In this document: positions 837-50,356 of the stretch, in pieces
Numbering within the stretch: the first letter of the stretch is position 1
Layout: every line of letters starts with the position of its first letter
Source: an uncultured Phycisphaerales bacterium
GTDB lineage: Bacteria; Planctomycetota; Phycisphaerae; Tepidisphaerales; Tepidisphaeraceae
DNA: 64,000 bases
Assembly (NCBI GenBank): GCA_963844715.1
Contig: CAWJPJ010000006.1
Coordinates: forward strand, 1,024,001 to 1,088,000
Reading direction: 5' to 3'
Notes under the pieces: generated by a model
What the model saw: the letters and a program-made list of their open reading frames with translations, nothing else
What the model was told of the DNA's origin: nothing
Databases searched by the model: none
Translations under genes and position numbers: made by a program

Positions 837-995
837 TACTCGCGGCACGCGCGAGCCGACCGCAATGACTTGGTTTTGGGCCAAGAGGTCCAACCCCGGC
901 TTCGCTCGAAGCGAAACTTCCGAAAGAGATGGCGGCCCGACCATCCCGAAGCCTGCGAGCCGGCCACAGTCCGGCCCGCACCCGCACATATATTA

Positions 996-1634
996 TTACA
1001 TCCCCGCTTCAAGTCGAGCGAAATCGCGCTTCCCACTCCGCGACCCATGTCCGGCGGGCCCGAACATCGCCCGCGTTTGGGCGTTGGGGGCCTGGATAAA
1101 AAACATTCCGATCAGTTGCACAGGATCGGCTGAACCCACGAACGCGTGCGGAAAGCCGTTGGCTGTAAAGAGCGCCGCCAGCGACTTGGCGGTGTACCCC
1201 GTCTTATGCAGATAGAAATCGTTCCCGCTGCTCTCCACCATGGGACTAAATCCGTAAATCACGTCTCGAACCCGAATGGGTCCCGCCGTCGATACGTAAA
1301 GCTGATCGTCCACATCCAGCTTCTCCCGAACCACGAGCTGAAAGAGTGCTCCCAAATCCGGCACGAGCGCGTGGACGAATCCCTCCGGCTTGAGAACGTG
1401 CCGGAATCCCCGAACAACTTTAGCCGCGTCGCGGCGATGGAAGTGTTCTAGATTATGCGAACAGTAAACCGCGTCGTAAGTCGCCGGCGGCAATTGAGCC
1501 AGCAACCTCGCATCCAGACAAATATCCGGCCGAGCCCGCGGATCGATATCCAGCCGATCGCAACGCCAGCCGCCGTATTGCGGCGGCATTGGGATTTCGC
1601 GCCTGCCCCCGCCGACATTCAGAACCGCTTTCAT
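996..1634 (-). CDS. Class I SAM-dependent methyltransferase (tandem paralog 1)
   Basis: Motif I 'VLNVGGG', 'RLDIDP', 'YDAVYCSHNLEH', 'VLKPEG'. Confidence 0.85.
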   Translation of the reverse strand: MKAVLNVGGGRREIPMPPQYGGWRCDRLDIDPRARPDICLDARLLAQLPPATYDAVYCSHNLEHFHRRDAAKVVRGFRHVLKPEGFVHALVPDLGALFQLVVREKLDVDDQLYVSTAGPIRVRDVIYGFSPMVESSGNDFYLHKTGYTAKSLAALFTANGFPHAFVGSADPVQLIGMFFIQAPNAQTRAMFGPAGHGSRSGKRDFARLEAGM

Positions 1635-31572: not shown

Positions 31573-33573
31573 TCAGGCGCTGCGGGCGAAATATTCCTTT
31601 TCCAGTTCGCGCAATTTTTCGGCAAGAGCATCATGCTCTTGCGCAATTTGCCGCAGGCGCTGGGGATCGCGGGCAAATTTGGGGTCGATCATGTTTTCCT
31701 GGCAGCGGGCGATTTCCTTTTCCGTGGCCGCGATCTGCTTTTCCAATTCCTCAACGGCAAGGCGCCCGAACCGGCGGGAATAGGGATTTTGCGGATTGCG
31801 CGAGTGAGCCCCCCTAACACCTTGGTGCTCGCCCGCCTGGTCCCCTGGCCGAGCTTCCCTATCGCCCGGCGGATTTGGGGATTTCTTCTTTTTAGATTGC
31901 GATTGACGGGCGGCCTTGGCGGCTTGGGCCTCGGCCTCTTTGGCGGCCGCAGCAGTCTCGGCTTTCTTTTTTTGCGCCGGCGTGGGCCCAGGCTGTGTAA
32001 TTGCCGTCGAAGGAAACGATATCCGGCGGCTCGAGGATCAGCAGGCGCTGGGTGACTTTATCCAGGAAATAGCGATCGTGGCTGACGCAGACGACTGTAC
32101 CGTCGAAATCATTCAGGGCACGCTCGAGGGCTTCGCAGGAATTGATATCGAGGTGGTTCGTCGGCTCGTCCATGACCAGGACGTTGGGGCGATCGATGAG
32201 GAGCTGGGCGATGGCGACTCTGGCGCGTTCGCCGCCGCTGAGCATACGGATGGGTTTGTCAATGTCTTCGTTGCGGAAGAGCATGAGGGCCAGGACCGCG
32301 CGAACGTCGGCGTCGTTGACATCGCGGCCGACGCGGACTTCCTCAGAAACGGTGTGATCGGGATTGAATTCGCCGAGGCGCTGATCGTAGTAGCCGAGTT
32401 TGAGGCTCGCGCCCAGCGGACTTCGCCGGCGTCGAGTTCGCGCTTGCCAAGGAGGACTTCGAGGAGTGTAGTTTTTCCGGAGCCATTGGGGCCGATGATT
32501 CCGATGCGCTCGCCGCGCGTGATATCGAGTTTGACGTCGGACCAGAGGGGTTTGTCGCCGTAGCGCTTGGTTAGTTCCTTGACGCGGAGCACGCGATCGC
32601 CGGCGCGGAGATCGCTGTTCATGGAGACGCGGATTTTGCTCGTGGTCTCGACGCTTTTGATGAGGTCGTCGCTGGCGAGCAGGCGCTGGAGGCGTTTGTC
32701 GCGGCCCTTGGCTTCCTTGCGCGCTGACCGGCGCCGAAGCGGCGGATGAATTCGGACTGCTTGGCGATATCCGCCTGCTGCTCTTCGTAAGCGCGCTGCT
32801 GAGACAGTTCGTGCAATTTGCGCTGCTCGACGTAGGCGGAATAGTTGCCCGGATAACTTTTGAGCTTGGCGCCAGTGAGCCAGACGATGCGCGTGGCCAG
32901 GCGATCGAGCAGATAGCGATCGTGACTGACGAGGAGCACGGCGCCCGGGAAACTCGCGAGATATTCCTCGAGCCAGGCGATGGCGGTCAGATCGAGGTGA
33001 TTGGTCGGCTCGTCTAGCAGGAGGAGATCACACTGGCCGGTGAGGAGTTTGGCCAGGGCGAGTCTGGATCTCTGGCCGCCGGAAAGAGTCGCGACGTTTT
33101 GTTCCCACGACTCCGGCGGCAGGCCGACGCCTTCGAGCATGGCTTCGAGTTTGTGTCGCCAGGCGTATCCGCCGGCGAGTTCGAAATCGTGCTGCGCTTC
33201 CTGATATTGGTGGAGAATTTTTTCGAGTTTCTCGCCGGTGACGTGGGCCATCTCGTGTTCCAACTTGCGCAGGCGATGGGATAGATCGTGAAGTGTCGAA
33301 AAGGCAAGTTCGGCCTCGTCCATGACGGTGTTGGCGGGATCAAAGACGGGGTCTTGCTCGAGATAGCCGAATTTGACGCCGTCGGCGATGGAGACAGTGC
33401 CGGCGTCGACGGGCAATTGTTTGGTAAGAACGCGGAAGAGCGTGGTTTTTCCGCTGCCATTGTCGCCGATGAGCCCGATGCGGCTCGCCGCGGTCGATGG
33501 AGAAGGCGAGCTTGTCGAACATGACGCGCCGGCCGAAGGTTTTTTCGATATCGAGTAGTGTTGCCAGTGCCAT
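31573..33573 (-). CDS. ABC-F family ATPase (Uup/YheS-like), multiple frameshifts
   Basis: Two NBDs: 'LSGGQRSR', 'LLDEPTNHLD', 'GPNGSGKTT', 'LSGGERAR', 'MDEPTNHLD'; no TM segments; coiled-coil C-terminus. Confidence 0.9.
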
Positions 33574-37647: not shown

Positions 37648-37820
37648 ACGGACCCGCCCAATATCACCTCAAATTGCACTGCAACTGCCGCTTGGCATTA
37701 ATCTTATCCGTCAAATTGAGGCGGATATTTTTGTGTTGCCCATGTAAATTGGTGTAGGATATAGGGCAAGCGTAACTCTTAAGTGGCGGCAGAAGTCCTG
37801 TGGAGACAGGGGGCTTTGCG

Positions 37821-38816
37821 ATGCAAATGGCAGTAGGGCAGGCAGTTTCAGATCGCCCGGTCATGGGCGCATTGCCGGAATTTGAATCGCGCTTCATCGT
37901 TCAATCGTCGGCGATGACCCGCGTTCAACAGGCGGCGAAGGCCGTGGCCACGCGCGCAAGCACCGTGATGCTTCTGGGGGAAACCGGCAGCGGCAAGGAG
38001 ATGCTGGCGCGGTTCGTTCACGAGAATTCCCCGCGGAAAAATCAGCCGTTTATTCCCGTCGACTGCTCGGCGTTGACCGAAACATTATTTGAAAGCCAGC
38101 TATTCGGGCACGTCAAAGGGGCATTCACCGGGGCTGTGCGCGATACCATGGGTTTCGTTCGCGCCGCCGACGGCGGGACGCTTTTTCTGGACGAAGTGGG
38201 CGAATTAACGCTGAATTTACAGGCAAAATTGCTGCGCGTGTTGCAGGAGCGCTGCGTCGTTCCGGTGGGCGGCACGCAGGCGTCTCCCGTTGACGTGCGC
38301 GTGGTCTGCGCCACGAATCGGGATTTGCAGGCGATGGTGGAACAAGAGACGTTTCGCCAGGATCTGTTTTTCCGAATCAACGTGGTGGTGCTGCGGGTTC
38401 CGCCGTTGCGCGAGCGCACGGAAGACATCGTGGCGTTGTCGGAATATTTCCTGGCGCGGCAGGCGGGGATGAGCCAGGAGCCGCGGAAATCTCTGCATCC
38501 CGACGCGGTGCAAAGCCTGATCAAATACAACTGGCCGGGGAACATCCGCGAGCTTTTCAATGTTTTGGAGCACGGGCACATCATGTCGCTGGGCCCGGTC
38601 GTTGAGTTAAGCGATTTGCCTCCCCCACTGAGCAATTCCGGGTTTGCGGGGCGCGTTCATGCGTCGGAGTTGAATCTCCAGCGGCTGGAGCGGAATGCGA
38701 TCATCGAAGCGTTGAAGCGCACGCGATTTAACCGCGCGGCGGCATGCCGTCTTTTGGGAATTGAGGCGCGTCGCTTGAATCGCCGAATTCTCGCCTTGCG
38801 CATCCCCCTGCCCTAG
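37821..38816 (+). CDS. sigma54-dependent activator (bEBP) without N-terminal sensor domain
   Basis: AAA+ domain begins after about 20 aa; 'GETGSGKE', intact GAFTGA, 'FLDEVG', 'WPGNIREL', C-terminal HTH. Confidence 0.92.
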   Translation: MQMAVGQAVSDRPVMGALPEFESRFIVQSSAMTRVQQAAKAVATRASTVMLLGETGSGKEMLARFVHENSPRKNQPFIPVDCSALTETLFESQLFGHVKGAFTGAVRDTMGFVRAADGGTLFLDEVGELTLNLQAKLLRVLQERCVVPVGGTQASPVDVRVVCATNRDLQAMVEQETFRQDLFFRINVVVLRVPPLRERTEDIVALSEYFLARQAGMSQEPRKSLHPDAVQSLIKYNWPGNIRELFNVLEHGHIMSLGPVVELSDLPPPLSNSGFAGRVHASELNLQRLERNAIIEALKRTRFNRAAACRLLGIEARRLNRRILALRIPLP

Positions 38817-38868: not shown

Positions 38869-39070
38869 CCAAAATGGTATTTTTCCGCCATATCCATTTA
38901 TAATCAAACAAGTTACGCGATCATCATACCCCCCACCACCCACCATTATGGCCGGTCGCGGTGCTTTGTTTGAATTTGAATGCAAAGGGCAATGCCAGCC
39001 ATAACCGTATTTATTTAGGGCACTTAGCATCAGATCGACGGACCTAATTTTAGGCGGCACGCGGTTCGTT
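38869..39070 (+). promoter_or_regulatory. sigma54-like promoter region, copy 1 (enhancer palindrome, IHF-like tracts, -24/-12-like box)
   Basis: CCAAAATGG 38869; ACC-CA-CCA-TTA-TGG-CC-GGT 38938-38956; CGGCACGCGGTTCGTT 39055-39070 (-12 is GT rather than GC); spacing matches copy 2. Confidence 0.65.
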
Positions 39071-39401
39071 ATAGCTTCCCGCGTAAGGCAGCGCCCATGA
39101 GCTAGGGCCATAAGGCTCTGTCCCTGTTGGGTGCGGATGCTTGCTCGATGGTGAGCTGGCATCGGGTGCTGCGGTAAGTGGATGGGTCGATCGCCGTAGC
39201 AGTTTTGATCGAATCCCAATTTGTTGTTCAGCCGTGTTCAGGGAGTCCCCCGCTGCGCGAGCCGCATGCCTAGAGCAGTGGCTTCGTTGTGGGTGTTGTG
39301 TGTACCGCCGGGAATTGTGCGGGGTGAGGTCCCCGTGATTTTCGGCGGAATTCGGAGTGGTGAAATAAGACAAGTCCCCTAACGGGGCCGAGGAGAGAAT
39401 C

Positions 39402-40745
39402 ATGAGTATCGTGGAGTCAACGAAGTCGAAGACACCCCGTATTACGCGACTTGAAGCCGTTGCCGGCGGAGCAATCATTGCTGCCGCCGTTTTCGCGGCT
39501 GCTCCGAAGTTCGCGTCCGCTCAATCCATTCAAATGCAGGTTTCGGGCGGCACCACGACCGACCCCACGGCCGCTGGCGCACTGACTTGGTTCAATACCT
39601 CGAACTGGAATAATGCCGGTGTTACCGGGACCCTTCCGGAAAGCGACACGGGCTCGCTCACCGCGCAAAACATCGCACCGGATAACGCCACGATGCCATC
39701 GGTGGGCTTGGTGTTTGATCCGGTCAACGACCCCAACGCGGCAGGACTTGGCGGTAACGCATATGTGGCGAACTTGGACGAGATTTCCGGTTCGACCTAT
39801 ATCGCTTCGGTTGCAGGAACTTATGCCGCTCCGGCAAAGCTCACGATCGAAAGCGGCACCCTCATCGCCGGCACAGCCACGGTTGGGCGCGATAGTCAGG
39901 GAATCCTGGCTCTCAACGGCGGAGCGTTCCTCACCGTCGGCTCAATCAAAATCCAAGGCACAAACAAGGCCGTTACGGCTATTGGTACTGGGACCTTCGA
40001 ATATCACGGAGGAACATTAGATGCCGAACAGGGCATCCAGCTCGGCTCGGGCGCTTGCAGTACGGGTCTAACCAAGACTTCAGCCGGTGTCGGCTACTTC
40101 ACGGTCTACAACGATGGCCCCGCCGGCGCGATTCTCAGCCAGAACGGTTTCCAGATCGCCACCAACACCAACCAGGCGGGCACGATCGGAATTGTTGAAT
40201 TCCACTATGACATCAACACGGGTGGAATCGGCGGAACCCGCCCGATCCAAACCAACGTGGACCAGGGCAACGGCGAAACCGGTCAGGGCATCCTGCACAT
40301 CCAAAATAACACCAACAATTCGGCGCGATTGAACCTTGTTCTTGACGCGGCGCCGAGCGTCATCGGCGGCCTCGTGCAGAATCTGGGCCTGTTCGATGAC
40401 ACCGTCATCTCGGGCTCCGGCACGTATCCGAAGGCCTTCTATTCAGTGGATGGCACGACGGTATTCACGCAAGGCGCCACCATCACGGCGGCATACATGG
40501 GCACGTCGTATAGCTGGACGATCAGCTATAGCGGGCAGATCAACTTCACGAATACGGCCACGTCAGGCTACGACTCGTCGGGAATCGATGCGGTTGGCGG
40601 CAACGACGTGGTACTGATCGGATTGCCGTCGGGCGGCGCTCCGCCGATCCCGGAACCGACCAGCTTGGCGCTACTCGGTGGCGCGGGCGGGATGATTATG
40701 GCCCGTCGCAGAAACAGGAAAGAAAACCAGGCCCCCAAAGCGTAA
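39402..40745 (+). CDS. PEP-CTERM sorting domain surface protein
   Basis: RBS GAGGAG; signal peptide ending 'ASA-Q'; G/T/N/S-rich body; C-terminal 'IPEPTSLALLGGAGGMIMARRRNRK'. Confidence 0.93.
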   Translation: MSIVESTKSKTPRITRLEAVAGGAIIAAAVFAAAPKFASAQSIQMQVSGGTTTDPTAAGALTWFNTSNWNNAGVTGTLPESDTGSLTAQNIAPDNATMPSVGLVFDPVNDPNAAGLGGNAYVANLDEISGSTYIASVAGTYAAPAKLTIESGTLIAGTATVGRDSQGILALNGGAFLTVGSIKIQGTNKAVTAIGTGTFEYHGGTLDAEQGIQLGSGACSTGLTKTSAGVGYFTVYNDGPAGAILSQNGFQIATNTNQAGTIGIVEFHYDINTGGIGGTRPIQTNVDQGNGETGQGILHIQNNTNNSARLNLVLDAAPSVIGGLVQNLGLFDDTVISGSGTYPKAFYSVDGTTVFTQGATITAAYMGTSYSWTISYSGQINFTNTATSGYDSSGIDAVGGNDVVLIGLPSGGAPPIPEPTSLALLGGAGGMIMARRRNRKENQAPKA

Positions 40746-40764: not shown

Positions 40765-40826
40765 TAAAACTCTCCGCTACACCCCCGGCTCCTACCCTAC
40801 AATGCCCCGGGGGTTTTTTATGCGCC
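40765..40826 (+). terminator. Intrinsic terminator / direct repeat copy 1 (62 bp)
   Basis: Stem ACCCCCGG/CCGGGGGT, 18-nt C-rich loop, T tract; identical to 41164-41226 except T-run length. Confidence 0.9.
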
Positions 40827-40867: not shown

Positions 40868-41068
40868 CCAAAGTAGTATGCTATTCGTCTATCCATATTG
40901 ATAACAAGGACTTAAATATCAAAATCACATATGTCCACCTACCAAAATGGCGGGTCTGGGCACGAGGTGAAGAATATAGAACCAGCAGTCTGATTGTTAT
41001 AACAGATGATTTGATAGGAAGTTAAAGAATTAATTGCCGATAGAAACAGCCGCGGCACGCAGTTAGCT
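40868..41068 (+). promoter_or_regulatory. sigma54-like promoter region, copy 2
   Basis: CCAAAGTAG 40868; IHF-like TAACAAGGACTTA; ACC-TA-CCA-AAA-TGG-CG-GGT 40937-40955; CGGCACGCAGTTAGCT 41053-41068 (GG-N10-GC). Confidence 0.7.
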
Positions 41069-41078
41069 GTTCATCGGG

Positions 41079-41219
41079 TGACCTAGTGGCTGCGGTGTTC
41101 GAAAGGACCCGCAGATTTGAAGATGAAAGCCGTCGTTGCCGAGTAAGGTGGCCACCGGCAGTTTAAAACTCTCCGCTACACCCCCGGCTCCTACCCTACA
41201 ATGCCCCGGGGGTTTTTTT
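41079..41219 (+). ncRNA. Putative sigma54-dependent small RNA (~140 nt)
   Basis: Lies between a sigma54 box and a terminator; GAAA-tetraloop hairpin 41090-41114; only a 7-codon ORF inside. Confidence 0.55.
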
Positions 41220-41226
41220 ATGCGCC
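41164..41226 (+). terminator. Intrinsic terminator / direct repeat copy 2 (63 bp)
   Basis: TAAAACTCTCCGCTACACCCCCGGCTCCTACCCTACAATGCCCCGGGGG(T)nATGCGCC. Confidence 0.9.
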
Positions 41227-41248: not shown

Positions 41249-43441
41249 TTACTGGCCGATCTTGACGTAGTCTCTCCAAAACTCGCGATAGGCGCCCTCG
41301 ATGGCACGCACGAATCCAGGCACGTCCGTCAGGGGTGAGCTGCGCATTCTTTCCCGCAAGCTTGCGCGGAGGGCGGGAAGGCGCGGGAGGTCATTTGCCC
41401 AGGCGTCGGCGAGGCGGACGAACTCGGATTCGTCGGCAGCGGCCAGATCAGTCAGTTGCAAATTGCTCAATTGACTCAAGCCGGCACGCCCCACGCTGGT
41501 CTTGCCCACAAGCGTCAACACGGGGACGCCCATCCAATAAGAGTCGAGGCTCGTGGTATGACCGTTGTAAGGCAAGGTATCCAATCCGAGATCGATCCGC
41601 TGATAGGTCTGGAGGTATTGCCGGCGGGGCTGCTGAGGAACGAATTCGATGCGATCCTGGCCGAGCTGGCGAAGAACCGTCTCGCGCGCGGAACCGGGCG
41701 GGGCCATGAGGAGGATCCGCGAATCTGGAATTTGATCGAGAACGGTTTTCCACCTCCGCAGGGTTTCGGGTGTGACTTTGCAGAAGTTGTTCAGGCAGCC
41801 AAAAGTTAGGCGCCCGGATGAAATGGCCGGGAGGGGACCGACGTCCGGACCATCAAGCACGTCCATCGACTTGGGATCGTAACACCAAAAACTGTGTGGG
41901 AGCCGATGGACTTTTTCCGCGTAATGGCTGTCGGTTCGCCCGGCGGGATCGAGGTAGGGGTCGCTGAGGCGCCAGTCGATTGTTTCGAGGCCGGTGCCGC
42001 CGGGATAGCCGCCGAAGGTGACTTGGATTGGGGCGGGCTTGCGAGCGAAGAGAGGCAAGCGATTTCCCGCTGATTGCCCGGCCAGATCGACGAGAATATC
42101 GATCTTGTCGGCGCGGATCGTTCGTTCGGCGGTTTCGTCGTCCATCAGCTGGATATTCCGCCAGGCGACAGCAGCGGCGGAAACCTTTTGCGTGACGGAA
42201 TCGACTCTGGGGGAATTGGAATAGCAATAGGCCTGGATGGATAGGCGGTCGTGTCCGGTAATCAGCGGCAGGAGATTTCTTCCGACAGGATGGTCGCGGA
42301 AGTCGGCGGAGACGTAGCCGACGCGAAGGACCCGCTCGGGATGGCGATCGTTATCATGGGGGCGGGCCAGCGCCTTGAGCGGCGCGGCGTGCAGTTGAGA
42401 CCAGCGCTTGGCTTCGGCGAGAATCGCGGCGGGATCGTCGTGCGAATAATGCAGGGAAAAGACGAGATTGCCGTGGTACTCGGTGTCGGCGGGCGCAAGG
42501 GCCATGGCTCGGCGATAGCAATCTTCGGATTCGGCCAGGCGGCCGAGTTGTCGCAGGGCGTTGCCGAGATTATTGAATGCTGGGGCGAAATTTGGGCGGA
42601 GGTGGATCGCTTTGTTGCACGCCTCGACGGCGCCGTCGGGATCATTCTGATCGCATAGAGCATTTCCGAGATTGTTGAGGGCCTCGGGATAATCCGGGCG
42701 CACGCCGAGCGCTTTGCGATAGCTTTCGATGGCTTCGCGGACTTTGCCAATGGTGCGAAGGGCGATGCCGAGGTTGTAATGGGCGTCGGCCAGTTGAGGA
42801 TCGAGTTCAACGGCGCGGCGATACTCGGCAATGGCTTCGTCGAATTTGGCGGTGTTTCTCAGGGCTTCGCCCAGGTTGTTATGTCCGGCGGCGAAATTGG
42901 GGGCGATGGTGAGGAGCTTGCGGTAAGTTGAGATGGCGCGGGGGAGGTCTCCCTTGGACATCAGGGCGGCGGCGAGATTATTCAGGGCCTCGGGGTAATC
43001 CGGGCGGAGGGTGAGGGCCTGCTCGAATTCGGCGATGGCTTCATCGGGGTTCCCCGATGAGGCGAGGGCCACGCCGAGGTTGTACGCCAGTTGCGGGACG
43101 CGCGGGTGACGGACGATTGCCTTTCGCAAAACTTCGATTGCGCGGTCGAACTGACCGGTGGAGAGCAGGGCGTTGCCTAGATTGTTGCACGCCGAGGCGG
43201 ATGCGGGATCGATTGCCACGGCCCGCTCGAACTCGGCGACGGCGGCGGTTTTCTGGCCGGATTGAATCAGTAGAATCGCCAGTTCCTGAATGACGTCGGC
43301 ATCTCGCGGCTTGAGAGTCAGGGCCTGGCGGAAAAGTTGTTCCGCTTCGCGGATGCGCTCCCCCTGCTGAGCACGGCGGGCTCGCTGAAGAATTTCGTCA
43401 ATGTTGCCGAACGGTTTCAACGCGAAATTCCCTCTTGCCAT
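41249..43441 (-). CDS. TPR-repeat GT41 glycosyltransferase (SPINDLY/OGT-like) 4
   Basis: About 9 TPRs ('NNLGNAL'), 'RVGYVSADFRDHPV', 'DILVDLAG', 'PAPIQ', 'FGCLNNFCK', 'LDTLPYNGHTT'. Confidence 0.93.
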   Translation of the reverse strand: MARGNFALKPFGNIDEILQRARRAQQGERIREAEQLFRQALTLKPRDADVIQELAILLIQSGQKTAAVAEFERAVAIDPASASACNNLGNALLSTGQFDRAIEVLRKAIVRHPRVPQLAYNLGVALASSGNPDEAIAEFEQALTLRPDYPEALNNLAAALMSKGDLPRAISTYRKLLTIAPNFAAGHNNLGEALRNTAKFDEAIAEYRRAVELDPQLADAHYNLGIALRTIGKVREAIESYRKALGVRPDYPEALNNLGNALCDQNDPDGAVEACNKAIHLRPNFAPAFNNLGNALRQLGRLAESEDCYRRAMALAPADTEYHGNLVFSLHYSHDDPAAILAEAKRWSQLHAAPLKALARPHDNDRHPERVLRVGYVSADFRDHPVGRNLLPLITGHDRLSIQAYCYSNSPRVDSVTQKVSAAAVAWRNIQLMDDETAERTIRADKIDILVDLAGQSAGNRLPLFARKPAPIQVTFGGYPGGTGLETIDWRLSDPYLDPAGRTDSHYAEKVHRLPHSFWCYDPKSMDVLDGPDVGPLPAISSGRLTFGCLNNFCKVTPETLRRWKTVLDQIPDSRILLMAPPGSARETVLRQLGQDRIEFVPQQPRRQYLQTYQRIDLGLDTLPYNGHTTSLDSYWMGVPVLTLVGKTSVGRAGLSQLSNLQLTDLAAADESEFVRLADAWANDLPRLPALRASLRERMRSSPLTDVPGFVRAIEGAYREFWRDYVKIGQ

Positions 43442-45452
43442 GCGCGGCGAAAGGCGGACTCAACATCGGCGGCAAAGGCGCGGGCGTCGAGCAACCGCGA
43501 GGCGCGCATTTTTTCTCGGAGCGAGGGACGCAACTCCTCCAGACCGGTCATGGCGGCGGCCTTTTTCACGTATTCATCTTCGGAGCCAGCGGCCAGTTCC
43601 GCTAGCCCGAGATTTGTCAGCAAGCTGAGTCCGACGCGGCTGGCGTGAGTTTTGCCGGTCAATGTTACGACGGGAACGCCCATCCAGATCGCCTCGCAGG
43701 TTGTGGTTGTGCCGTTATAAGGATAGGTATCCAGGGCGATGTCCATCTCGGCATAGGTTTGCAAATGCTGGTGAATGGATGGGGATTTGCCGCGGAGATC
43801 GATGCGCGCGGGGTTGATGCCGACGGATGTAAAACGATGGAGAAATTCCGCCCTTGCTTCCGAGTCGCTCAATCCGGCGTTCTTGATCAGCAAACGGCTG
43901 TTGGGAACGGACTGGAGAATCCGAATCCATAGATCTGTCACCTTTTGATTCATTTTGGCCAGGTTGTTGAATGAACCGAAGGTGATGAAGCCGTTGCGCT
44001 TGGCGGGTTGCGGTGAGACTTCCGGCGCATCGGATGGGGGTTGATAGCAGACAAAGCTGTGCGGCAATCGGAGGAGTTTCTCACTGTAATATCCCTCGGT
44101 CATTCCGGGGGGATCGGCGTGGAAGTCCGTGAGGCGGTAATCCATGACGGAGAGACCCGTCGTGTCGGGACAGCCGAGGTAGGTGAATTGAACGGGAGCG
44201 GGTTTGCGGGCGAAGACGAGGAGGCGGTTGCCTGCGGTGTGGCCGGCCAAATCAACGAGGATGTCGATCTTATCCGCGCGGATCATGTCGGAAAGATTTT
44301 GATCGGTGACTCCTGTCGTGTCGCGCCAGTGGTGGACGAGTTTTTTCAATCGCGCTGTCGTCGCGTCACCTTTTAGCAAATCGGCATAGGCAAAAGTCTC
44401 CACCTGGTTCCGATCGTGACCGGCGAGGAGGCTTTCGATGAAGAATCCTACGGAGTGCTCACGGAAATCGGGGGAAACATAGCCAACGCGCAATCTTCGG
44501 TTGGGATCGCGATCAACATCGTAGGGATTAATCTGAGTTGCCAAGGGTTTGGCAAAGCGATCATTCCATTTTTGATGCTCGGCGAAAATTTCGCCGGGTC
44601 GGGGTCGGGAAGAAAATGCAGGGCCCAGAGAAGATTGTCGGCGGCGGGTGGATAGTTTTCCGCGCCGGAACGAATCAATGGCCTCGGGGATGTGGTTCAT
44701 ACCGAGGAGGGCGTTTCCTAGATTTGAATAAGCCTCGGCAAAATCAGGTCGCAAGCTGATCGCGCCCGTGCACGCGGCCGCGGATTCATGGAAACGGGCG
44801 GCGATGGAGAGGCTGTTCCCGAGATTGCTAAACGCCTCGGCAAAATCCGGCTTGATGGCGATCGCCTGGCGGTAGATTTCGATGGCTTCTTCGGTTTTTC
44901 CCTGACGCTCCAGGGCGCCAGCGAGATTATTCAGGGCCTGGGGATGGGGGCCAATGGCGGCGGTTTTGCGGAAATTTTCGACGGCGCCGTCCCAGTCGCC
45001 GGTGGCCCGATAGGCATCGGCCAGATTGTAGTACGAACCCGCGTCGTCCTTGTTGTATTGGATCGCGCTGCGGTAGGCGGAAATTGCCCCTTTCCAATCG
45101 GTCATCGCGCCCAGGGCGCAGCCGAGGTTAAACCAGGCCTGGGACCAATCGGACCGAATGGCAATGGCGCGGCGGCATGCCGCTGCCGCCTCAGCGGGCG
45201 CGAGAGGGCAAGAAGCACGACCGCGAGATTCAACTGGAAATCGGCGCGGCGCGGATCGATTGATGCGGCCCGCTCGAGCGGAGGCAGGGCTTCTCGCGCT
45301 CGCGCGGTTTGAAAAAGGAGAGTCCCGAGGAGATGGAGAGCCTGCGGGTCGTTGGGTTTTTCGGAGATTGCTTTTCTATAAAGCGTCTCGGCCTGGTCGA
45401 GGCGTCCGGCCTGGTGATGGGCGGCGGCGAGGGTGAGTGATTCGCTGGTCAT
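43417..45452 (-). CDS. TPR-repeat GT41 glycosyltransferase (SPINDLY/OGT-like) 3, frameshifted
   Basis: TPRs; 'RVGYVSPDFREHSV', 'DLAGHT', 'FGSFNNLAK', 'LDTYPYNGTTTTCEA.WMGVP'. Confidence 0.92.
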
Positions 45453-47425
45453 CCCGGCGATTTGCAGTATTCGACCCAGATTCGGCGAAGAGCCGCTTCG
45501 AAGCCGCGGGCGAATTTTGCTCCGTCCATGAGGGCGGATTCCTGCATGCGCGGACGCAAGGATGCCCGCAGCTCCCCGAGGCGCGCGGTGTCTGCGGCAA
45601 GGTCGGCGGCAATTTTAGTAAATTCCTCGGGGGTTTGGGCCGCAAGATTCTGGAGATTCAGATTCGACAGGGCCGTGTAAGAAGCGCGTCCCATGACCGT
45701 TGGACTGACGAGAGTCACGACGGGAACCCCCATCCATAAGGAATCGAACGTGGTGGTATGCCCGCTGCACGGATAGGTGTCGAGGGCGACATCGATTCGG
45801 TTGAACACGCGCAGATATTTCGCACGGAGCAGGCGGTCCATGAATTCAACCCGCTCCATGCTGATCCCTTTTTGGACGAACCGATCGGTGACGCGCTGCC
45901 GAGCCGAGCCTGGGGGCGCGAGCATGATGAACCGGGACGAGGGAACGGCTGCAAGGACGTCGGCCCACATGTCGAGCGTTTCGTCGTTGATTTTCCCAAA
46001 CGTGTTGAGAGAGCCGAAGGTGATGAAGGCGGCGTTCTTCGCCGGGAGAGGACCGACGATCGGCTCCTTCGTCATCGGATCGTAACACCAGAAACAATCG
46101 GGAAGAGGCATGGCAAGCTCGTTTCCCGGTGCGGCCACGGTTGGCGGGCCGTCGGGCGGTTCGAGAAAGCGGTCGGTGAGCCGCCAGTCGATGGTGTCGA
46201 GGCCCGACGTTCCGGGGTATCCCAGCCAACTGACCTGCACGGGCGCGGGTTTTCGCGCGAATGCGAGAAGGCGATTCCCCAGGGTGTGAAGCTTCAAATC
46301 GACGAGAATGTCGATCCCATCTTTGCGAATCTGCTCGGCCAAGTCCTCATCGTGCCAGCCATGGGTGAAGCACCAAGTATCGGCGTAGGTTTGAAACCTT
46401 TTCGTGGAGTCATCCGGTTCGTCAACATCGGCGTAGCAAAAAATCTCATATTGGGCGTGATCGAGATGGCTTAGAAGCGGTTCCAGGAAGAACTCACTGG
46501 CGTGGGCGAAAAAATCGGAGGATGAATAGCCGATGCGCAGGCGGCGTGTGGGATCGCGATCATTCTCATGGGCGCGGAGTTGCGATTTGAGCGGCGCCGA
46601 ATGCAGCTCGTTCCAACGGCGCATTTCGTCGGCCAGGACGCGCAAATCCATTTCCCCATAGTTCACAGTGCCGATAAACGTGCTTCGGTATGCGGCGCTG
46701 TCCGGGCGCAATTCGACGGCTTTGCGATAACTGGCCAGAGCCTCGGGTATCTTTCCCAGATCCTTTTGAATGTTGCCTAGATTGTTGTGAACGTCGGCGC
46801 GGTCGGGATTGAGATAGAGGGCGCGGCGGCAGGCGGTGAGGGCCTCGTCGTATTTCCCCTGGGTCCAGAGGGAATGGCCGAGATTGTTGTAAGCGACGGC
46901 ATCATTGGGACGCGCGGCAATGACCTGGCGAAAGGCTGTTTCCGCGTCCTCCTGGCGACCCAGGGTGCCCAGGGCGCTGCCGAGGTTGTTCAGGGCGTCG
47001 ACAAAATCGGCGCGAATGGCGAGGGTCTGGCGGAACATGGCGATCGCCTCCGGCAGGCGATGCATGGTCGCCAGGGCGATGCCGATATCGTTGGACGCCT
47101 CGGCGTAGTCGGGCTTCAGCTCAAGCGCACGCATCAGGGGTGCAATCGCCTCATGGGGCTTGCCCGACGTGCGCAGGACCACGCCCATGGCGTAATGCAG
47201 ATCGGCGCGCTGATCGTTCTTGGCGACGGCAAGCTGAATATGCTCCAGGGCAGCCTGGGGTTTTCCCTGTCTATATTCGAGAACGGCAATGCGATAGAGC
47301 AAATCGGGGGAATCGGGTTCGTGTTCCAGGAGCTGCTGAAAATGAACGCGCGCCTGTTCGAGATCGCCCGCCTTCTCGTGCCGGAGCGCTTGTTCGAGAA
47401 TTTGTTCCGCCGTCATCTCCGCCAT
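45449..47425 (-). CDS. TPR-repeat GT41 glycosyltransferase (SPINDLY/OGT-like) 2
   Basis: TPRs; 'RIGYSSSDFFAHAS', 'DLKLHT', 'WLGYPGT', 'FGSLNTFGK', 'LDTYPCSGHTT'. Confidence 0.92.
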   Translation of the reverse strand: MAEMTAEQILEQALRHEKAGDLEQARVHFQQLLEHEPDSPDLLYRIAVLEYRQGKPQAALEHIQLAVAKNDQRADLHYAMGVVLRTSGKPHEAIAPLMRALELKPDYAEASNDIGIALATMHRLPEAIAMFRQTLAIRADFVDALNNLGSALGTLGRQEDAETAFRQVIAARPNDAVAYNNLGHSLWTQGKYDEALTACRRALYLNPDRADVHNNLGNIQKDLGKIPEALASYRKAVELRPDSAAYRSTFIGTVNYGEMDLRVLADEMRRWNELHSAPLKSQLRAHENDRDPTRRLRIGYSSSDFFAHASEFFLEPLLSHLDHAQYEIFCYADVDEPDDSTKRFQTYADTWCFTHGWHDEDLAEQIRKDGIDILVDLKLHTLGNRLLAFARKPAPVQVSWLGYPGTSGLDTIDWRLTDRFLEPPDGPPTVAAPGNELAMPLPDCFWCYDPMTKEPIVGPLPAKNAAFITFGSLNTFGKINDETLDMWADVLAAVPSSRFIMLAPPGSARQRVTDRFVQKGISMERVEFMDRLLRAKYLRVFNRIDVALDTYPCSGHTTTFDSLWMGVPVVTLVSPTVMGRASYTALSNLNLQNLAAQTPEEFTKIAADLAADTARLGELRASLRPRMQESALMDGAKFARGFEAALRRIWVEYCKSPG

Positions 47426-47436
47426 CGCCAAACTTC

Positions 47437-49510
47437 CTACACGACAGGGCCGTTTGGGGCAACTGCCTGGCGCCACATGCGGCGGTAGGCCGCTTCAATA
47501 TTTCGCGCAAACCGCTTCGCGTCGGTCAGGGGGCACGCCTGCATCTTTTGGCGCAACTGGGCCCGAAGATCTGCCAGGCGAGTCAAATCTCGGGTCCAAT
47601 CGACGGCAATTTGAACGAATTGCGCTTCGTCGCGGGCGGCGAGTTCCGACAGATTCAGATTGGACAACTGGCTCCATCCGGCGCGGCCGACGCTCGTTTC
47701 GCCGATCAGTGTCACGACCGGCACGCCCATCCAAAAGGAATCGAGACCGGTGGTGTGGCCGTTATACGGAAGCGTATCCAGACCGAGATCGATGCGGTGA
47801 TACGTGTTCAAATAGTCATCACGCGGCTGCTGCGCGACGAATTCGATTCGGGCGGGATCGACGTTCAAAGTTTTTAGGACCCAATCGCGCGCGGAGCCTT
47901 GGGGGGCGAGAAGGACCAGCCGACTCTGCGGCACGGCCGCCAGAACCTGGGACCAAAGATTGAGCGTCTTGGCGTTGATCTTACAGAAGTTGTTGAGGCA
48001 ACCGAAGGTGACGAATCCATTAGTAATCGCCGGCAGAGGATTGACTTCGAAATTCCGGACATCCATCGCATCAGGATCGTAACACCAGAAACTGTCGGGG
48101 AGGCGAGCGAGTCGCTCGGTGTAAAGATTGTCGCCGAGTTCGGGTGGATCCAGATAGGGGTCGGTGATTCGCCAATCCATGGTTTCCAAACCTGTGCCGC
48201 CGGGATATCCGCCGAAGGTCGCCTGGATGGGGGCGGGCTTGAGCGCGAAGAGCGGGAGGCGATTGCCGGCGGTATGGCCGGATAGATCGACGAGGATATC
48301 GATTTGGTCCGCGACGATGGCGTCGGCGGCCTGGATGTCGCCGAGTAATCCGATCGGCCTCCATCCGTCTGATGCAGCGCGAAACTTTTCGGTGATCGAA
48401 TCGACGGTGCGCGAAGTGGGGTAGCAGAATATTTCGAAATTGGCGCGGTCGTGATTCAAAACGAGGGGGAGAATATTTTTCCCGACGGGATGGATGCGCA
48501 GATCGAATGAGACGTAGCCGATGCGCAGGCGGCGGTCCGGATTGCGATCGTTTTTGAGCGTGCGGCGCAGCGGGCGAAGGGGTTTGGCGTAGCGGTCGTT
48601 CCATGCGCGGCATGTGCTGGAGGAGGGTCTGGGCGGACTGCTGGGGATCGTAGAGCCCCAAGAAAACCAGATTGCTGCCGAATACCGGGTCGCCGGGGCA
48701 CAGATCGACGGCGCGGCGGTAATAAACCATGGCTTCGTCCATGCGTCCGACGGCGCGGAGAGCATTGCCGAGATTATTCAGGGCGGGAGGCGCGCTGGGA
48801 GCCAGCTCGACGGCGCGGCGGGCCTCGGCGATGGCGTCATCGAGCCGATTCGCGGACATCAAGGCGTTGGCGAGATTGTGGTGAGCCGGCGCGAAATCGG
48901 GACGAATCTGAATCGCCCGGCGGGCGGCGGTTATGGCCTCCTCGTTTCGATCCACCATCCAGAGGGCATCGCTAAGATTGCTCCATGCCTCGACATAATC
49001 CGCGCGAATCTCGACGGCGCGGCGGAAAAGATCGATCGCGTCGTCGAATCGGCCCTGCAATTTCCGGGCATTTCCGAGATTGTTATGCGCTGGCGCAAAA
49101 TCCGGGCTGGCGGCTATCGCCAAATTGACTTGGGAGATTCCGTCACCGATCCGGCCCAATTGGCAGAGGAGAACACCCAGATCGTTGTGGGCCTGGGGAA
49201 CCCCTGGCCGCAAATCGACAGAGGATTGCAGGGAGGCGATGGCTTCCTCCAATCGACCCTGTGCTTTGAGGGCGTAGGCGAGGTGCTGGTGATATTCCGC
49301 CTTGCGGAAATTCGCGGCGATCGCCTGGCGGAAATAATTTTCGGCCTCCTGCGGACGTCCGGAGCGCAAGAGCAGCTTGGCGAGATCGTGGAGGGCGTCT
49401 TCCCGCTGGGGCTGGCGCTGAAGAATTTGGCGATAGGTTGATTCGGCCTCGCCGATTCGCCCGGCCTGCTCGTGCTTCCTGGCGAGGTCGAGGGTCTGCT
49501 GGATATTCAT
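47437..49510 (-). CDS. TPR-repeat GT41 glycosyltransferase (SPINDLY/OGT-like) 1, frameshifted
   Basis: TPRs in 48071..49525; catalytic part in 47437..48765 ('RIGYVSFDLRIHPV', 'NNFCK', 'LDTLPYNGHTT'). Confidence 0.92.
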
Positions 49511-50356
49511 CGGGCGTCGGGCCATTCCCCGCTGAAGACTTCGGTTGCCGGTCCCGTCATGTAGACGTTGTCATCGGTTTGGCGCCAGTCGAGTTGCAAA
49601 TCGCCGCCGGGAAGATGTCCGAGTATTTTGCGATTCGTTCGGCCGGTTAAAGCGCCGGTGACGCAAACGGCGCAGGCGCCGGTTCCGCAGGCGAGGGTGA
49701 TGCCGCTGCCCCGCTCCCAGTGGCGCATGACGACCTCGTCGGGGTTATTCACTTGCACCCAATGTACGTTGATGCGGCGCGGAAACGCCGCGGCGTTCTC
49801 GATCTTGGGGCCCAGAGCGCTGCACGTCGACCCCGGCGGGATCGTCGGTGAAGATCACCAAGTGCGGATTTCCCATGGAGACGAACGTGGCGCGGAATTC
49901 CTCGCCGTCGATGGTGAAATCGTATTCGTGCTCCCCGACTTTTTTCATTTTTTCGGGATCGACGGGGATTTTGGGAAGGTCCAGGACCGGGCGGCCCATG
50001 TTTACGGTCACGTCGGTGACCCGCTGTTCGCGAAGATGCAAGTCGAGGGTCAGGACGCCGCGGCCGGTTTCGACGGTGAGCGGATTTTTATCGCTGAGAT
50101 TGCGCTCGTGGGCATATTTCGCCAGGCCGCGGATTCCGTTTCCGCACATTTCCGCCTCGCTGCCGTCGGCGTTGAACATGCGCATTTTCAGGTCAGCCTT
50201 CTGGGAGGGGAGAACGAGAATCAGCCCGTCGGCGCCGACGCCGAAATGGCGATCGGAGATGGTTTTCGCCAGTTGCGCGGGATCAGCGACCGTCTCGGCG
50301 AATCCGTTGACGTAAATGTAATCGTTGCCGATGCCGTGCATCTTCGTGAACTTCAT
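49507..50356 (-). CDS. dapF: Diaminopimelate epimerase, frameshifted
   Basis: 'MKFTKMHGIGNDY', 'EMCGNG', 'SMGNPH', 'WERGSGITLACGTG'. Confidence 0.96.

What the first reader, a model, noticed from the sequence alone, without database searches (positions are those of the whole stretch)
41079..41219. Structured ~140-nt sRNA candidate with GNRA hairpin and a 7-codon micro-ORF
Contains CTGCGG-T-GTTC-GAAA-GGAC-CCGCAG (41090-41114, GAAA tetraloop, one G-U pair), a second possible stem TGCC..GGTGGCCACC..GGCA, and the terminator. A micro-ORF MKAVVAE* lies at 41123-41146 with only a weak RBS. A sigma28-type -10 (GCCGATAG, 41036-41043) is also upstream, so dual control is possible. I recognise no Rfam family here.
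Basis: partly seen in the sequence, partly recalled or inferred. Interest (0 to 1): 0.7.

Follow-up and report, generated by a model that had tools for sequence, protein, structure and literature searches.

The report
Duplicated anti-ribosome-site small RNA, Planctomycetota
This is probably a real, undescribed small regulatory RNA whose working end is a duplicated C-rich tail that matches the translation-start regions of messages for surface proteins, in a bacterial group where I found no such regulator described.

Summary
The hairpins, terminator and micro-ORF are at the stated places, but comparison moves the weight elsewhere. In congener G001 the GNRA loop, micro-ORF and sigma28 box are lost. 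The sigma54 box, an upstream CCA-W3-TGG site ~112-117 bp away and the 3' end are kept: 51/51 nt identical there, against 60/90 in the 5' part. This 62-nt C-rich module (single-stranded seed, terminator with an 18-nt loop) is also duplicated at 40765-40826, in the 3' UTR of the upstream PEP-CTERM gene. It resembles an undescribed CCUCCUCCGC sRNA module found in 73 of 141 Tepidisphaeraceae genomes, with no Rfam match, but scores only as a divergent relative. Exact >=8-nt complements of its seeds occur at translation starts of 6/22 PEP-CTERM genes against 16/1050 others. At >=9 nt, 4/15 G001 PEP-CTERM genes match; 0/23 match in G002, where no module was found. Best reading: a sigma54 sRNA plus a 3'-UTR twin that repress other PEP-CTERM mRNAs by base-pairing, without Hfq. 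Expression is not shown, the seeds were picked partly after seeing matches, and only two genomes carry it.

The parts
37800..38816 (+). sigma54 activator (AAA+ and HTH_8, no receiver or sensor domain found); candidate activator of both promoters
   Evidence: Pfam, NCBIfam; 86% orthologue in G001; related activators lie next to PEP-CTERM genes in G001 C8 and G002 C4. Activator role inferred.
38869..38877 (+). CCA-W3-TGG palindrome, candidate activator site 1
   Evidence: 87 such sites in the genome; kept at the same place in G001 C236
38943..38951 (+). CCA-W3-TGG palindrome, candidate activator site 2, 113 bp before the box
   Evidence: G001 has CCAATTTGG 115 bp before its box
39056..39069 (+). 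sigma54-type -24/-12 box of the PEP-CTERM gene (GG-N10-GT variant)
   Evidence: conserved in G001 C236; similar box at the G002 C4 locus
39402..40745 (+). PEP-CTERM surface protein, 447 aa, of a genus-expanded family (7 matches in G000, 4 in G001, 3 in G002)
   Evidence: TIGR02595 over cut-off
40765..40826 (+). Module copy A in the 3' UTR: seed + terminator with C-rich loop
   Evidence: 62/63 identical to copy B; present in G001 with a 3-nt loop insertion
40942..40950 (+). CCA-W3-TGG palindrome 112 bp before the sRNA's sigma54 box
   Evidence: G001 has it 117 bp before its box plus two more upstream
41054..41067 (+). sigma54 -24/-12 box (GG-N10-GC) of the sRNA; predicted +1 about 41079
   Evidence: one of 4 matches to a strict pattern in the genome; conserved in G001; rpoN present
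41090..41114 (+). 5' hairpin 1; outer stem conserved, GNRA loop not
41123..41146 (+). micro-ORF MKAVVAE*, judged chance
   Evidence: not conserved; 33% of shuffles give one
41129..41159 (+). hairpin 2; similar fold in G001 with changed sequence
41164..41180 (+). Seed 1 (UAAAACUCUCCGCUACA): CUCUCC core complementary to GGAGAG ribosome sites, plus GCUACA extension
   Evidence: its 3' half is predicted to pair with the RNA's 5' end in G000, not in the G001 centroid fold
41180..41219 (+). Terminator: 8-bp stem, 18-nt open loop 41188-41205 (seed 2), U-tract
   Evidence: fold; most loop positions unpaired with p>0.85; 41169-41219 identical in G001, 51 of 51
41249..43441 (-). Convergent TPR + glycosyltransferase-41 gene, first of an array (context)

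Best explanation
A sigma54-transcribed ~140-nt sRNA whose functional part is the 3' module. SHOWN: conserved promoter elements, an invariant module, a twin copy in the 3' UTR of the upstream PEP-CTERM gene, and an excess of exact complements at PEP-CTERM translation starts. INFERRED: the adjacent activator switches on both the PEP-CTERM gene and the sRNA through the shared CCA-W3-TGG sites. The module, as sRNA and as mRNA 3' end, pairs seed 1 with GGAGAG-type ribosome sites and the loop with GGUAGGAG leaders or with AGC-AUU-GUA-G (codons 2-5) of paralogues. It thereby blocks translation of other PEP-CTERM mRNAs, without Hfq. The G000 host gene has synonymous differences at that site and would largely escape.
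For: Module 51/51 identical between species against 60/90 for the 5' part and 29/52 for the promoter stretch; a plain terminator does not need an invariant 18-nt loop, and paralogues end in a plain stem. 3 of the 5 genome-wide pairings of CCA-W3-TGG with a downstream sigma54 box are at this locus. Among 1072 ATG+SD genes, >=8-nt exact complements: 6/22 PEP-CTERM (6/16 clusters) vs 16/1050 others, Fisher 2e-6; 0/500 full shuffles and 1/500 core-keeping shuffles reach the cluster count; >=9 nt: 4/22 vs 5/1050. Canonical family seeds give 3/22 vs 57/1050 and 0/22 vs 14/1050. G001: 4/15 genes (2/10 clusters) at >=9 nt, 4/1000 shuffles; G002, no module found: 0/23 even at 7 nt. Best case C6:419043: 11-nt loop match over its ribosome site plus an upstream seed-1 match. 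Loop duplex -13.6 to -14.5 kcal/mol with five paralogue starts, -7.1 with the G000 host. Related sigma54-linked family with a covarying stem.
Against: No expression data for the sRNA. Only two genomes carry the module, and no covariation inside it. Seeds were delimited after the first matches were seen, and the codon 2-5 match was noticed in G001 data, so G001 is not independent for it. By duplex energy, seed-1 shuffles that keep CUCUCC do as well (36/60) and the canonical seed ranks PEP-CTERM genes equally (AUC 0.755 vs 0.753). At 7 nt the core-keeping control is not beaten (70/500). GGAGAG sites also mark PEP-CTERM genes in G002 (10/27), and one G002 paralogue still pairs with the loop (-11.6). 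By summed energy the four MSIV-start family members rank only 86, 343, 544 and 2312 of 3858. G001 vs G002 by cluster is 2/10 vs 0/15 (p 0.15, my arithmetic). In G000 half of seed 1 is predicted occluded. Gene starts come from my own caller on a frameshift-rich assembly.
Confidence: 0.58

Rival explanations
1. A real sigma54 sRNA, but a broad anti-Shine-Dalgarno repressor of strongly initiated mRNAs; PEP-CTERM genes score only because their ribosome sites are purine-rich.
For: Energy-based enrichment is explained by the CUCUCC core and matched by the canonical seed; 16 non-PEP genes also have >=8-nt matches; GGAGAG predates the module.
Against: Exact 8-9-nt matches beat core-keeping shuffles and canonical seeds; the codon 2-5 site lies outside the ribosome-binding motif; 0/23 in G002.
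Confidence: 0.2
2. A real RNA that acts by binding a protein or another RNA (decoy or sponge) rather than by repressing mRNAs.
For: Repeated CUAC/CUCC motifs; tandem modules in relatives (L166); two CsrA genes in the genome; a conserved hairpin loop in the host leader is partly complementary to seed 1 (-10.6 kcal/mol).
Against: The transcribed strand is C-rich and has no GGA loops of the CsrA-decoy kind (motif recalled); non-random target matches.
Confidence: 0.1
3. A relic: promoter plus terminator left after a tandem duplication lost its gene, with the copies kept alike by gene conversion and no function beyond termination.
For: Same promoter architecture as the host gene; stem arm CCCCCGGC shared with paralogue terminators; whole-RNA fold z only -1.9 and -0.9.
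Against: Copies are identical across species while the two G001 copies differ by 3 nt; box, upstream site and hairpin layout are kept at 67% identity; stand-alone sigma54 genes ending in a related module recur in the family.
Confidence: 0.09
4. A micro-protein gene, an insertion with direct repeats, or an assembly artefact.
For: ORF present; exact direct repeat; assembly has frameshifts.
Against: ORF not conserved and expected by chance; same duplication in G001; spacer has no second copy in the genome.
Confidence: 0.03

Closest known systems
LhrC1-5 of Listeria monocytogenes (PMC4132741, abstract read)
   Same: Multicopy sRNA with redundant CU-rich sites; blocks translation of a surface-protein mRNA; Hfq not needed for pairing; driven by one regulator.
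   Different: Different phylum; here sigma54 with an enhancer-type activator, one copy embedded in the 3' UTR of a member of the target family; no Rfam match.
RepG of Helicobacter pylori (PMC8295292, passages read)
   Same: C/U-rich terminator loop is the pairing site for a G-rich leader; affects the cell surface.
   Different: RepG reads a homopolymeric G-repeat; here two seeds, mixed-sequence sites and a duplicated module.
Cuckoo RNAs (RSs0680/CcsR) of Alphaproteobacteria (PMC4615179, passages read)
   Same: Modular anti-Shine-Dalgarno C-rich motif in hairpin loops with variable stems; the wider Tepidisphaeraceae family has CCUCCUCCGC and tandem modules.
   Different: Cuckoo has CCUCCUCCC in each of 2-4 hairpin loops and was reported from alphaproteobacteria; here one seed is single-stranded, the motif differs, and no Rfam model matches.
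Undescribed Phycisphaerae CCUCCUCCGC module family (found here)
   Same: Single-stranded CUCCGC, terminator with ACCCU loop, U-tract, GCGC; occurs both as sigma54 stand-alone gene and as 3' UTR.
   Different: Seeds changed to CUCUCCGCUAC and an 18-nt loop; 14-19 bits against 25-88 bits for typical members; G000 has a separate canonical member at C6:834604-834662.

Membership tests
Any Rfam 15 family | Score at gathering threshold | tested here: not met
   also none for the module in 25 related loci
Cuckoo RNA | CCUCCUCCC in each hairpin loop | tested here: not met
   loop is CUCCUACCCUACAAUGCC; hairpins 1 and 2 have no C-rich loop
Cuckoo RNA | Alphaproteobacterial host | tested here: not met
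   matching records are titled Tepidisphaeraceae
Phycisphaerae CCUCCUCCGC family (this work) | Single-stranded CUCCGC + terminator with ACCCU loop + U-tract + GCGC | tested here: met
   aligned
Phycisphaerae CCUCCUCCGC family (this work) | Intact CCUCCUCCGCC seed | tested here: not met
Phycisphaerae CCUCCUCCGC family (this work) | Significant covariance-model score with a model built without these copies | tested here: inconclusive
   R2: 15.6 and 15.1 bits, ranks 1 and 3 of the window, E 0.07-0.09. R3: ranks 1 and 2, E 0.007 and 0.08 in 64 kb; the three G001 copies are the top 3 of 5 hits, E 0.003-0.04 in 40 kb. Not significant genome-wide.
sigma54-dependent gene | GG-N10-GC box, upstream activator site, rpoN and an activator in the genome | tested here: met
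   (sequence level only)
sigma54-dependent gene | Transcription start 12 nt after the box, rpoN-dependent | not testable with these tools
   only contig-level RNA runs were available
Base-pairing repressor sRNA (LhrC/RepG kind) | Exposed, conserved CU-rich seeds complementary to target start regions | tested here: met
   loop open and invariant; enrichment; seed 1 partly occluded in G000
Base-pairing repressor sRNA (LhrC/RepG kind) | Measured binding and repression | not testable with these tools
   needs experiment
Hfq/ProQ-dependent sRNA | Chaperone gene present | tested here: not met
   Hfq 0 of 5 genomes, ProQ 0 of 3; G000 is 85% complete, and divergent homologues could be missed
Dual-function sRNA / micro-protein gene | Conserved ORF with ribosome site | tested here: not met

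The most novel reading that the evidence does not exclude
A surface-protein switch in Planctomycetota: a sigma54-induced PEP-CTERM mRNA carries in its own 3' end a silencer of its paralogues, amplified by a co-induced sRNA twin, and escapes it through synonymous changes in codons 2-4. It is one retargeted offshoot of a class-wide, Hfq-free family of plug-in anti-Shine-Dalgarno terminator modules that serve interchangeably as sRNA ends and mRNA 3' UTRs.
Probability: 0.3. Interest if true: 0.78.

Novelty: new variant of a known kind. Interest (0 to 1): 0.58.

Why it matters
My searches (listings only) showed no characterised base-pairing sRNA in Phycisphaerae and no sRNA acting on PEP-CTERM genes. 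If true, this gives post-transcriptional control of the large, poorly understood PEP-CTERM surface-protein repertoire, and a case of how a new sRNA arises by duplication of a 3' UTR module and retuning of its seed. It also exposes a wider family, in about half of the Tepidisphaeraceae genomes searched, whose canonical members can be tested in cultured relatives.

Tried and rejected
Rfam at gathering and E-value thresholds: nothing; the weak ErsA hit (E 1.6) is a C-rich terminator look-alike. The sigma70/terminator scan missed both terminators because the loop exceeds 8 nt. RNA runs: two runs of one study, shares 0.05-0.06, kept as contigs; they cover only 39139-39312 at depth about 3 and nothing over the sRNA, which is no evidence either way. 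Duplex-energy ranking alone did not single out PEP-CTERM targets beyond the anti-SD core. CCA-W3-TGG is not enriched before PEP-CTERM genes in general (2/39 vs 38/3814, p 0.06), so it marks this locus, not a regulon; the copy upstream of C6:419043 lies about 420 nt away and has no box. R3 on 151 phylum-wide genomes found 2, both Phycisphaerae (only 36 candidates scored per genome). Earlier-findings look-ups returned nothing. tmRNA-tag, toxin-antitoxin and att-site readings were considered: no Rfam match, no small hydrophobic ORF seen, no second spacer copy. For model R2, G112 (L165) and the short-stem members were left out because their stems were out of register; for A7 I gave 33 loci chosen one per genome where possible.

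Full report
Observation. Rfam has nothing here at gathering score and nothing better than E 0.28 locally. The finding as written does not mention that 41164-41226 repeats 40765-40826 (55 nt exact, 62/63 with one U). Copy A follows the stop of a 447-aa PEP-CTERM gene (39402-40745; TIGR02595). A sigma54 activator without a sensor domain lies upstream and a TPR-GT41 array converges from downstream. Records matching the module are titled Tepidisphaeraceae.

Conservation. DNA searches of 61 and 141 genomes found the full element only in G000 and congener G001; the other hits were U-tract tails or chance. G001 has the same layout (PEP-CTERM gene, copy A, spacer, sRNA with copy B) and a third, more divergent copy after another PEP-CTERM gene. 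The duplication is therefore not an assembly error. Identity is 51/51 over 41169-41219, 60/90 over the 5' part and 29/52 over the promoter stretch. The outer stem of hairpin 1 and the shape of hairpin 2 are kept. The GNRA loop, the micro-ORF and the sigma28 box are not; 33% of 2000 shuffles give such an ORF. G002 (same genus, 95% complete) has plain terminators after two family members and no module was found in it. The plain terminator shares the arm CCCCCGGC with the module, so the module may have grown from it, from the family below, or from both.

Promoter. GGCACGCAGTTAGC at 41054-41067 is one of 4 strict-pattern boxes in the genome, is kept in G001, and predicts +1 near 41079; rpoN is present. 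The palindrome CCA-W3-TGG (87 sites in 4.55 Mb) lies 112 bp before this box, 113 and 187 bp before the host gene's box, and 117, 115 and 189 bp before the G001 boxes. Three of the 5 genome-wide pairings of this site with a downstream box are at this locus. I infer co-activation of gene and sRNA, most likely by the adjacent activator. In G001 the activator and host promoter are on contig C236, while the gene in front of the module has, by eye, the upstream region of G000's C7 paralogue: recombination or a paralogue mis-join.

Wider family. Weak hits of model R1 led to a module of the form single-stranded CCUCCUCCGCC, terminator with ACCCUCC loop, U-tract, GCGC. Model R2, built from 7 sequences outside G000/G001, hit 73 of 141 family genomes at E<=0.01 (the tally includes G004, an unpublished genome, on which nothing else here rests) and 28 of 151 class genomes, mainly two families. 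R3 found 2 of 151 phylum-wide. Among 29 loci read, the module ends sigma54 stand-alone genes, sigma54-driven genes for a ~110-aa protein with weak GlgB N-terminal similarity, ~70-aa membrane-protein genes and RNAs with a conserved 5' motif. In 33 aligned members 96.9% of stem cells pair and 11 of 13 pairs change on both sides, above all 500 shuffles and all slid controls (alignment fitted to the model, kin not independent). None of 25 loci scanned has an Rfam match for it. The window's copies are the best or near-best hits in the window but weak (R2 E 0.07-0.09; R3 E 0.007 and 0.08), and the three G001 copies top a 40-kb search. So this is a divergent relative with altered seeds, not a proven member; G000's canonical member is at C6:834604-834662.

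Targets. Reading PEP-CTERM leaders showed complements of both seeds. With one start rule for all genes (1072 ATG+SD genes from my own caller; -50 to +25), >=8-nt exact complements occur in 6/22 PEP-CTERM genes (6/16 clusters) and 16/1050 others. 0/500 full shuffles and 1/500 shuffles keeping the anti-SD cores reach 6 clusters. At 9 nt the counts are 4/22 and 5/1050; at 7 nt the core-keeping control is not beaten (70/500). Canonical seeds give 3/22 vs 57/1050 and 0/22 vs 14/1050. Examples: 11 nt over the ribosome site of C6:419043; 10 nt at C4:239740; the loop 9-mer CUACAAUGC against GCAUUGUAG in codons 2-5 of paralogues C7:598877 and C6:344706. I fetched 30 of 44 PEP-CTERM matches in G001 and 30 of 61 in G002, plus family loci held already; starts were recoverable for 15 and 23 genes. 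G001 has 4/15 (2/10 clusters) at >=9 nt, 4/1000 shuffles; G002 has 0/23 at >=7 nt. Seed-1 duplex medians were -13.6 and -10.7 kcal/mol (p 0.009); seed 2 and the canonical seed did not differ. The G000 host reads AGT ATC GTG where paralogues read AGC ATT GTA, and pairs at -7.1 rather than -13.6; GTA is 10% of early Val codons.

Against. Energy-based enrichment is carried by the CUCUCC core and equalled by the canonical seed. GGAGAG sites are common in G002's PEP-CTERM genes too (10/27), and one G002 paralogue pairs at -11.6. Family members do not rank at the top by summed energy. Seeds were delimited after the first matches were seen, and the codon-site match was noticed in G001. Half of seed 1 is predicted to pair with the 5' end in G000. 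There are two genomes and no expression evidence. Hfq (0/5) and ProQ (0/3) were not found; CsrA was.

Comparison. It works like LhrC (multicopy, redundant CU-rich sites, surface-protein target, Hfq dispensable; PMC4132741, abstract seen) and RepG (C/U-rich terminator loop as seed; PMC8295292, passages seen). The wider family resembles cuckoo RNAs (PMC4615179, passages seen) but fails their motif and host range. PMC3333781 (passages seen) reports a response regulator binding PEP-CTERM gene targets in Desulfovibrio and, separately, another regulator with an sRNA target. Searches (listings only, beyond the four papers named) showed no description of this RNA or family; subscription papers and supplements were not seen. 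Sigma28 and sigma54 consensus spacings and the CsrA motif are recalled.

Verdict. A real sigma54 sRNA gene with probability about 0.85; a base-pairing repressor directed at PEP-CTERM mRNAs about 0.58. New variant of a known kind; interest 0.58.

Noticed in passing
G000:C6:834604-834662 (L213) and 73 of 141 family genomes: Undescribed CCUCCUCCGC anti-SD terminator module, as sigma54 sRNA end or as 3' UTR of a sigma54-driven ~110-aa gene with weak GlgB N-terminal similarity; covarying stem; no Rfam match.
   Followed up: partly
L194-L197, L200, L202, L205, L209, about 100-170 nt upstream of the module: A subtype has a conserved 5' motif GCGCGGTTGGTTCCC followed by a long hairpin with CCCGCAG/CTGCGGG arms; no Rfam match. 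A candidate structured RNA of its own.
   Followed up: no
L166:1500-1800 (-), G022; also G234 C150, G252 C33, G131 C34: Three tandem modules in a row in G022, cuckoo-like; closely spaced hits in the others suggest the same.
   Followed up: no
window 39079-39401: ~320-nt leader of the PEP-CTERM gene, conserved in G001, with a hairpin near 39183-39218 that shows a compensatory change and a loop partly complementary to seed 1. The only RNA-run contigs laid (depth ~3, one study) fall in 39139-39312. At the G002 C4 locus this place seems to hold a small receiver-like ORF instead (read by eye).
   Followed up: partly
L183, L185, L189-L193: Long-stem subtype follows either a ~70-aa two-helix membrane-protein gene or a sigma70-like promoter.
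   Followed up: no
L012:1440-1520 (+), L018:~950-1010 (-): Other C-rich-loop terminators (TTCCCCCCCTC loops) in G102 and G144; the G144 one lies near tmRNA; possibly a second small family.
   Followed up: no
window 927-983 (-): nhaA-I riboswitch candidate, Rfam RF03057, 53.3 bits.
   Followed up: no
window 41249-49525 (-): Array of TPR + glycosyltransferase-41 (O-GlcNAc transferase-like) genes, several apparently frameshifted; similar genes follow PEP-CTERM paralogues in G001 and G002.
   Followed up: no
window 32619-33573 (-): ABC-F-like ATPase gene split by frameshifts, consistent with assembly indels.
   Followed up: no
G001:C183 vs C236: The G001 gene carrying the module has the upstream region of G000's C7 paralogue, while the activator and promoter orthologue are on another contig: recombination or mis-join.
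   Followed up: partly
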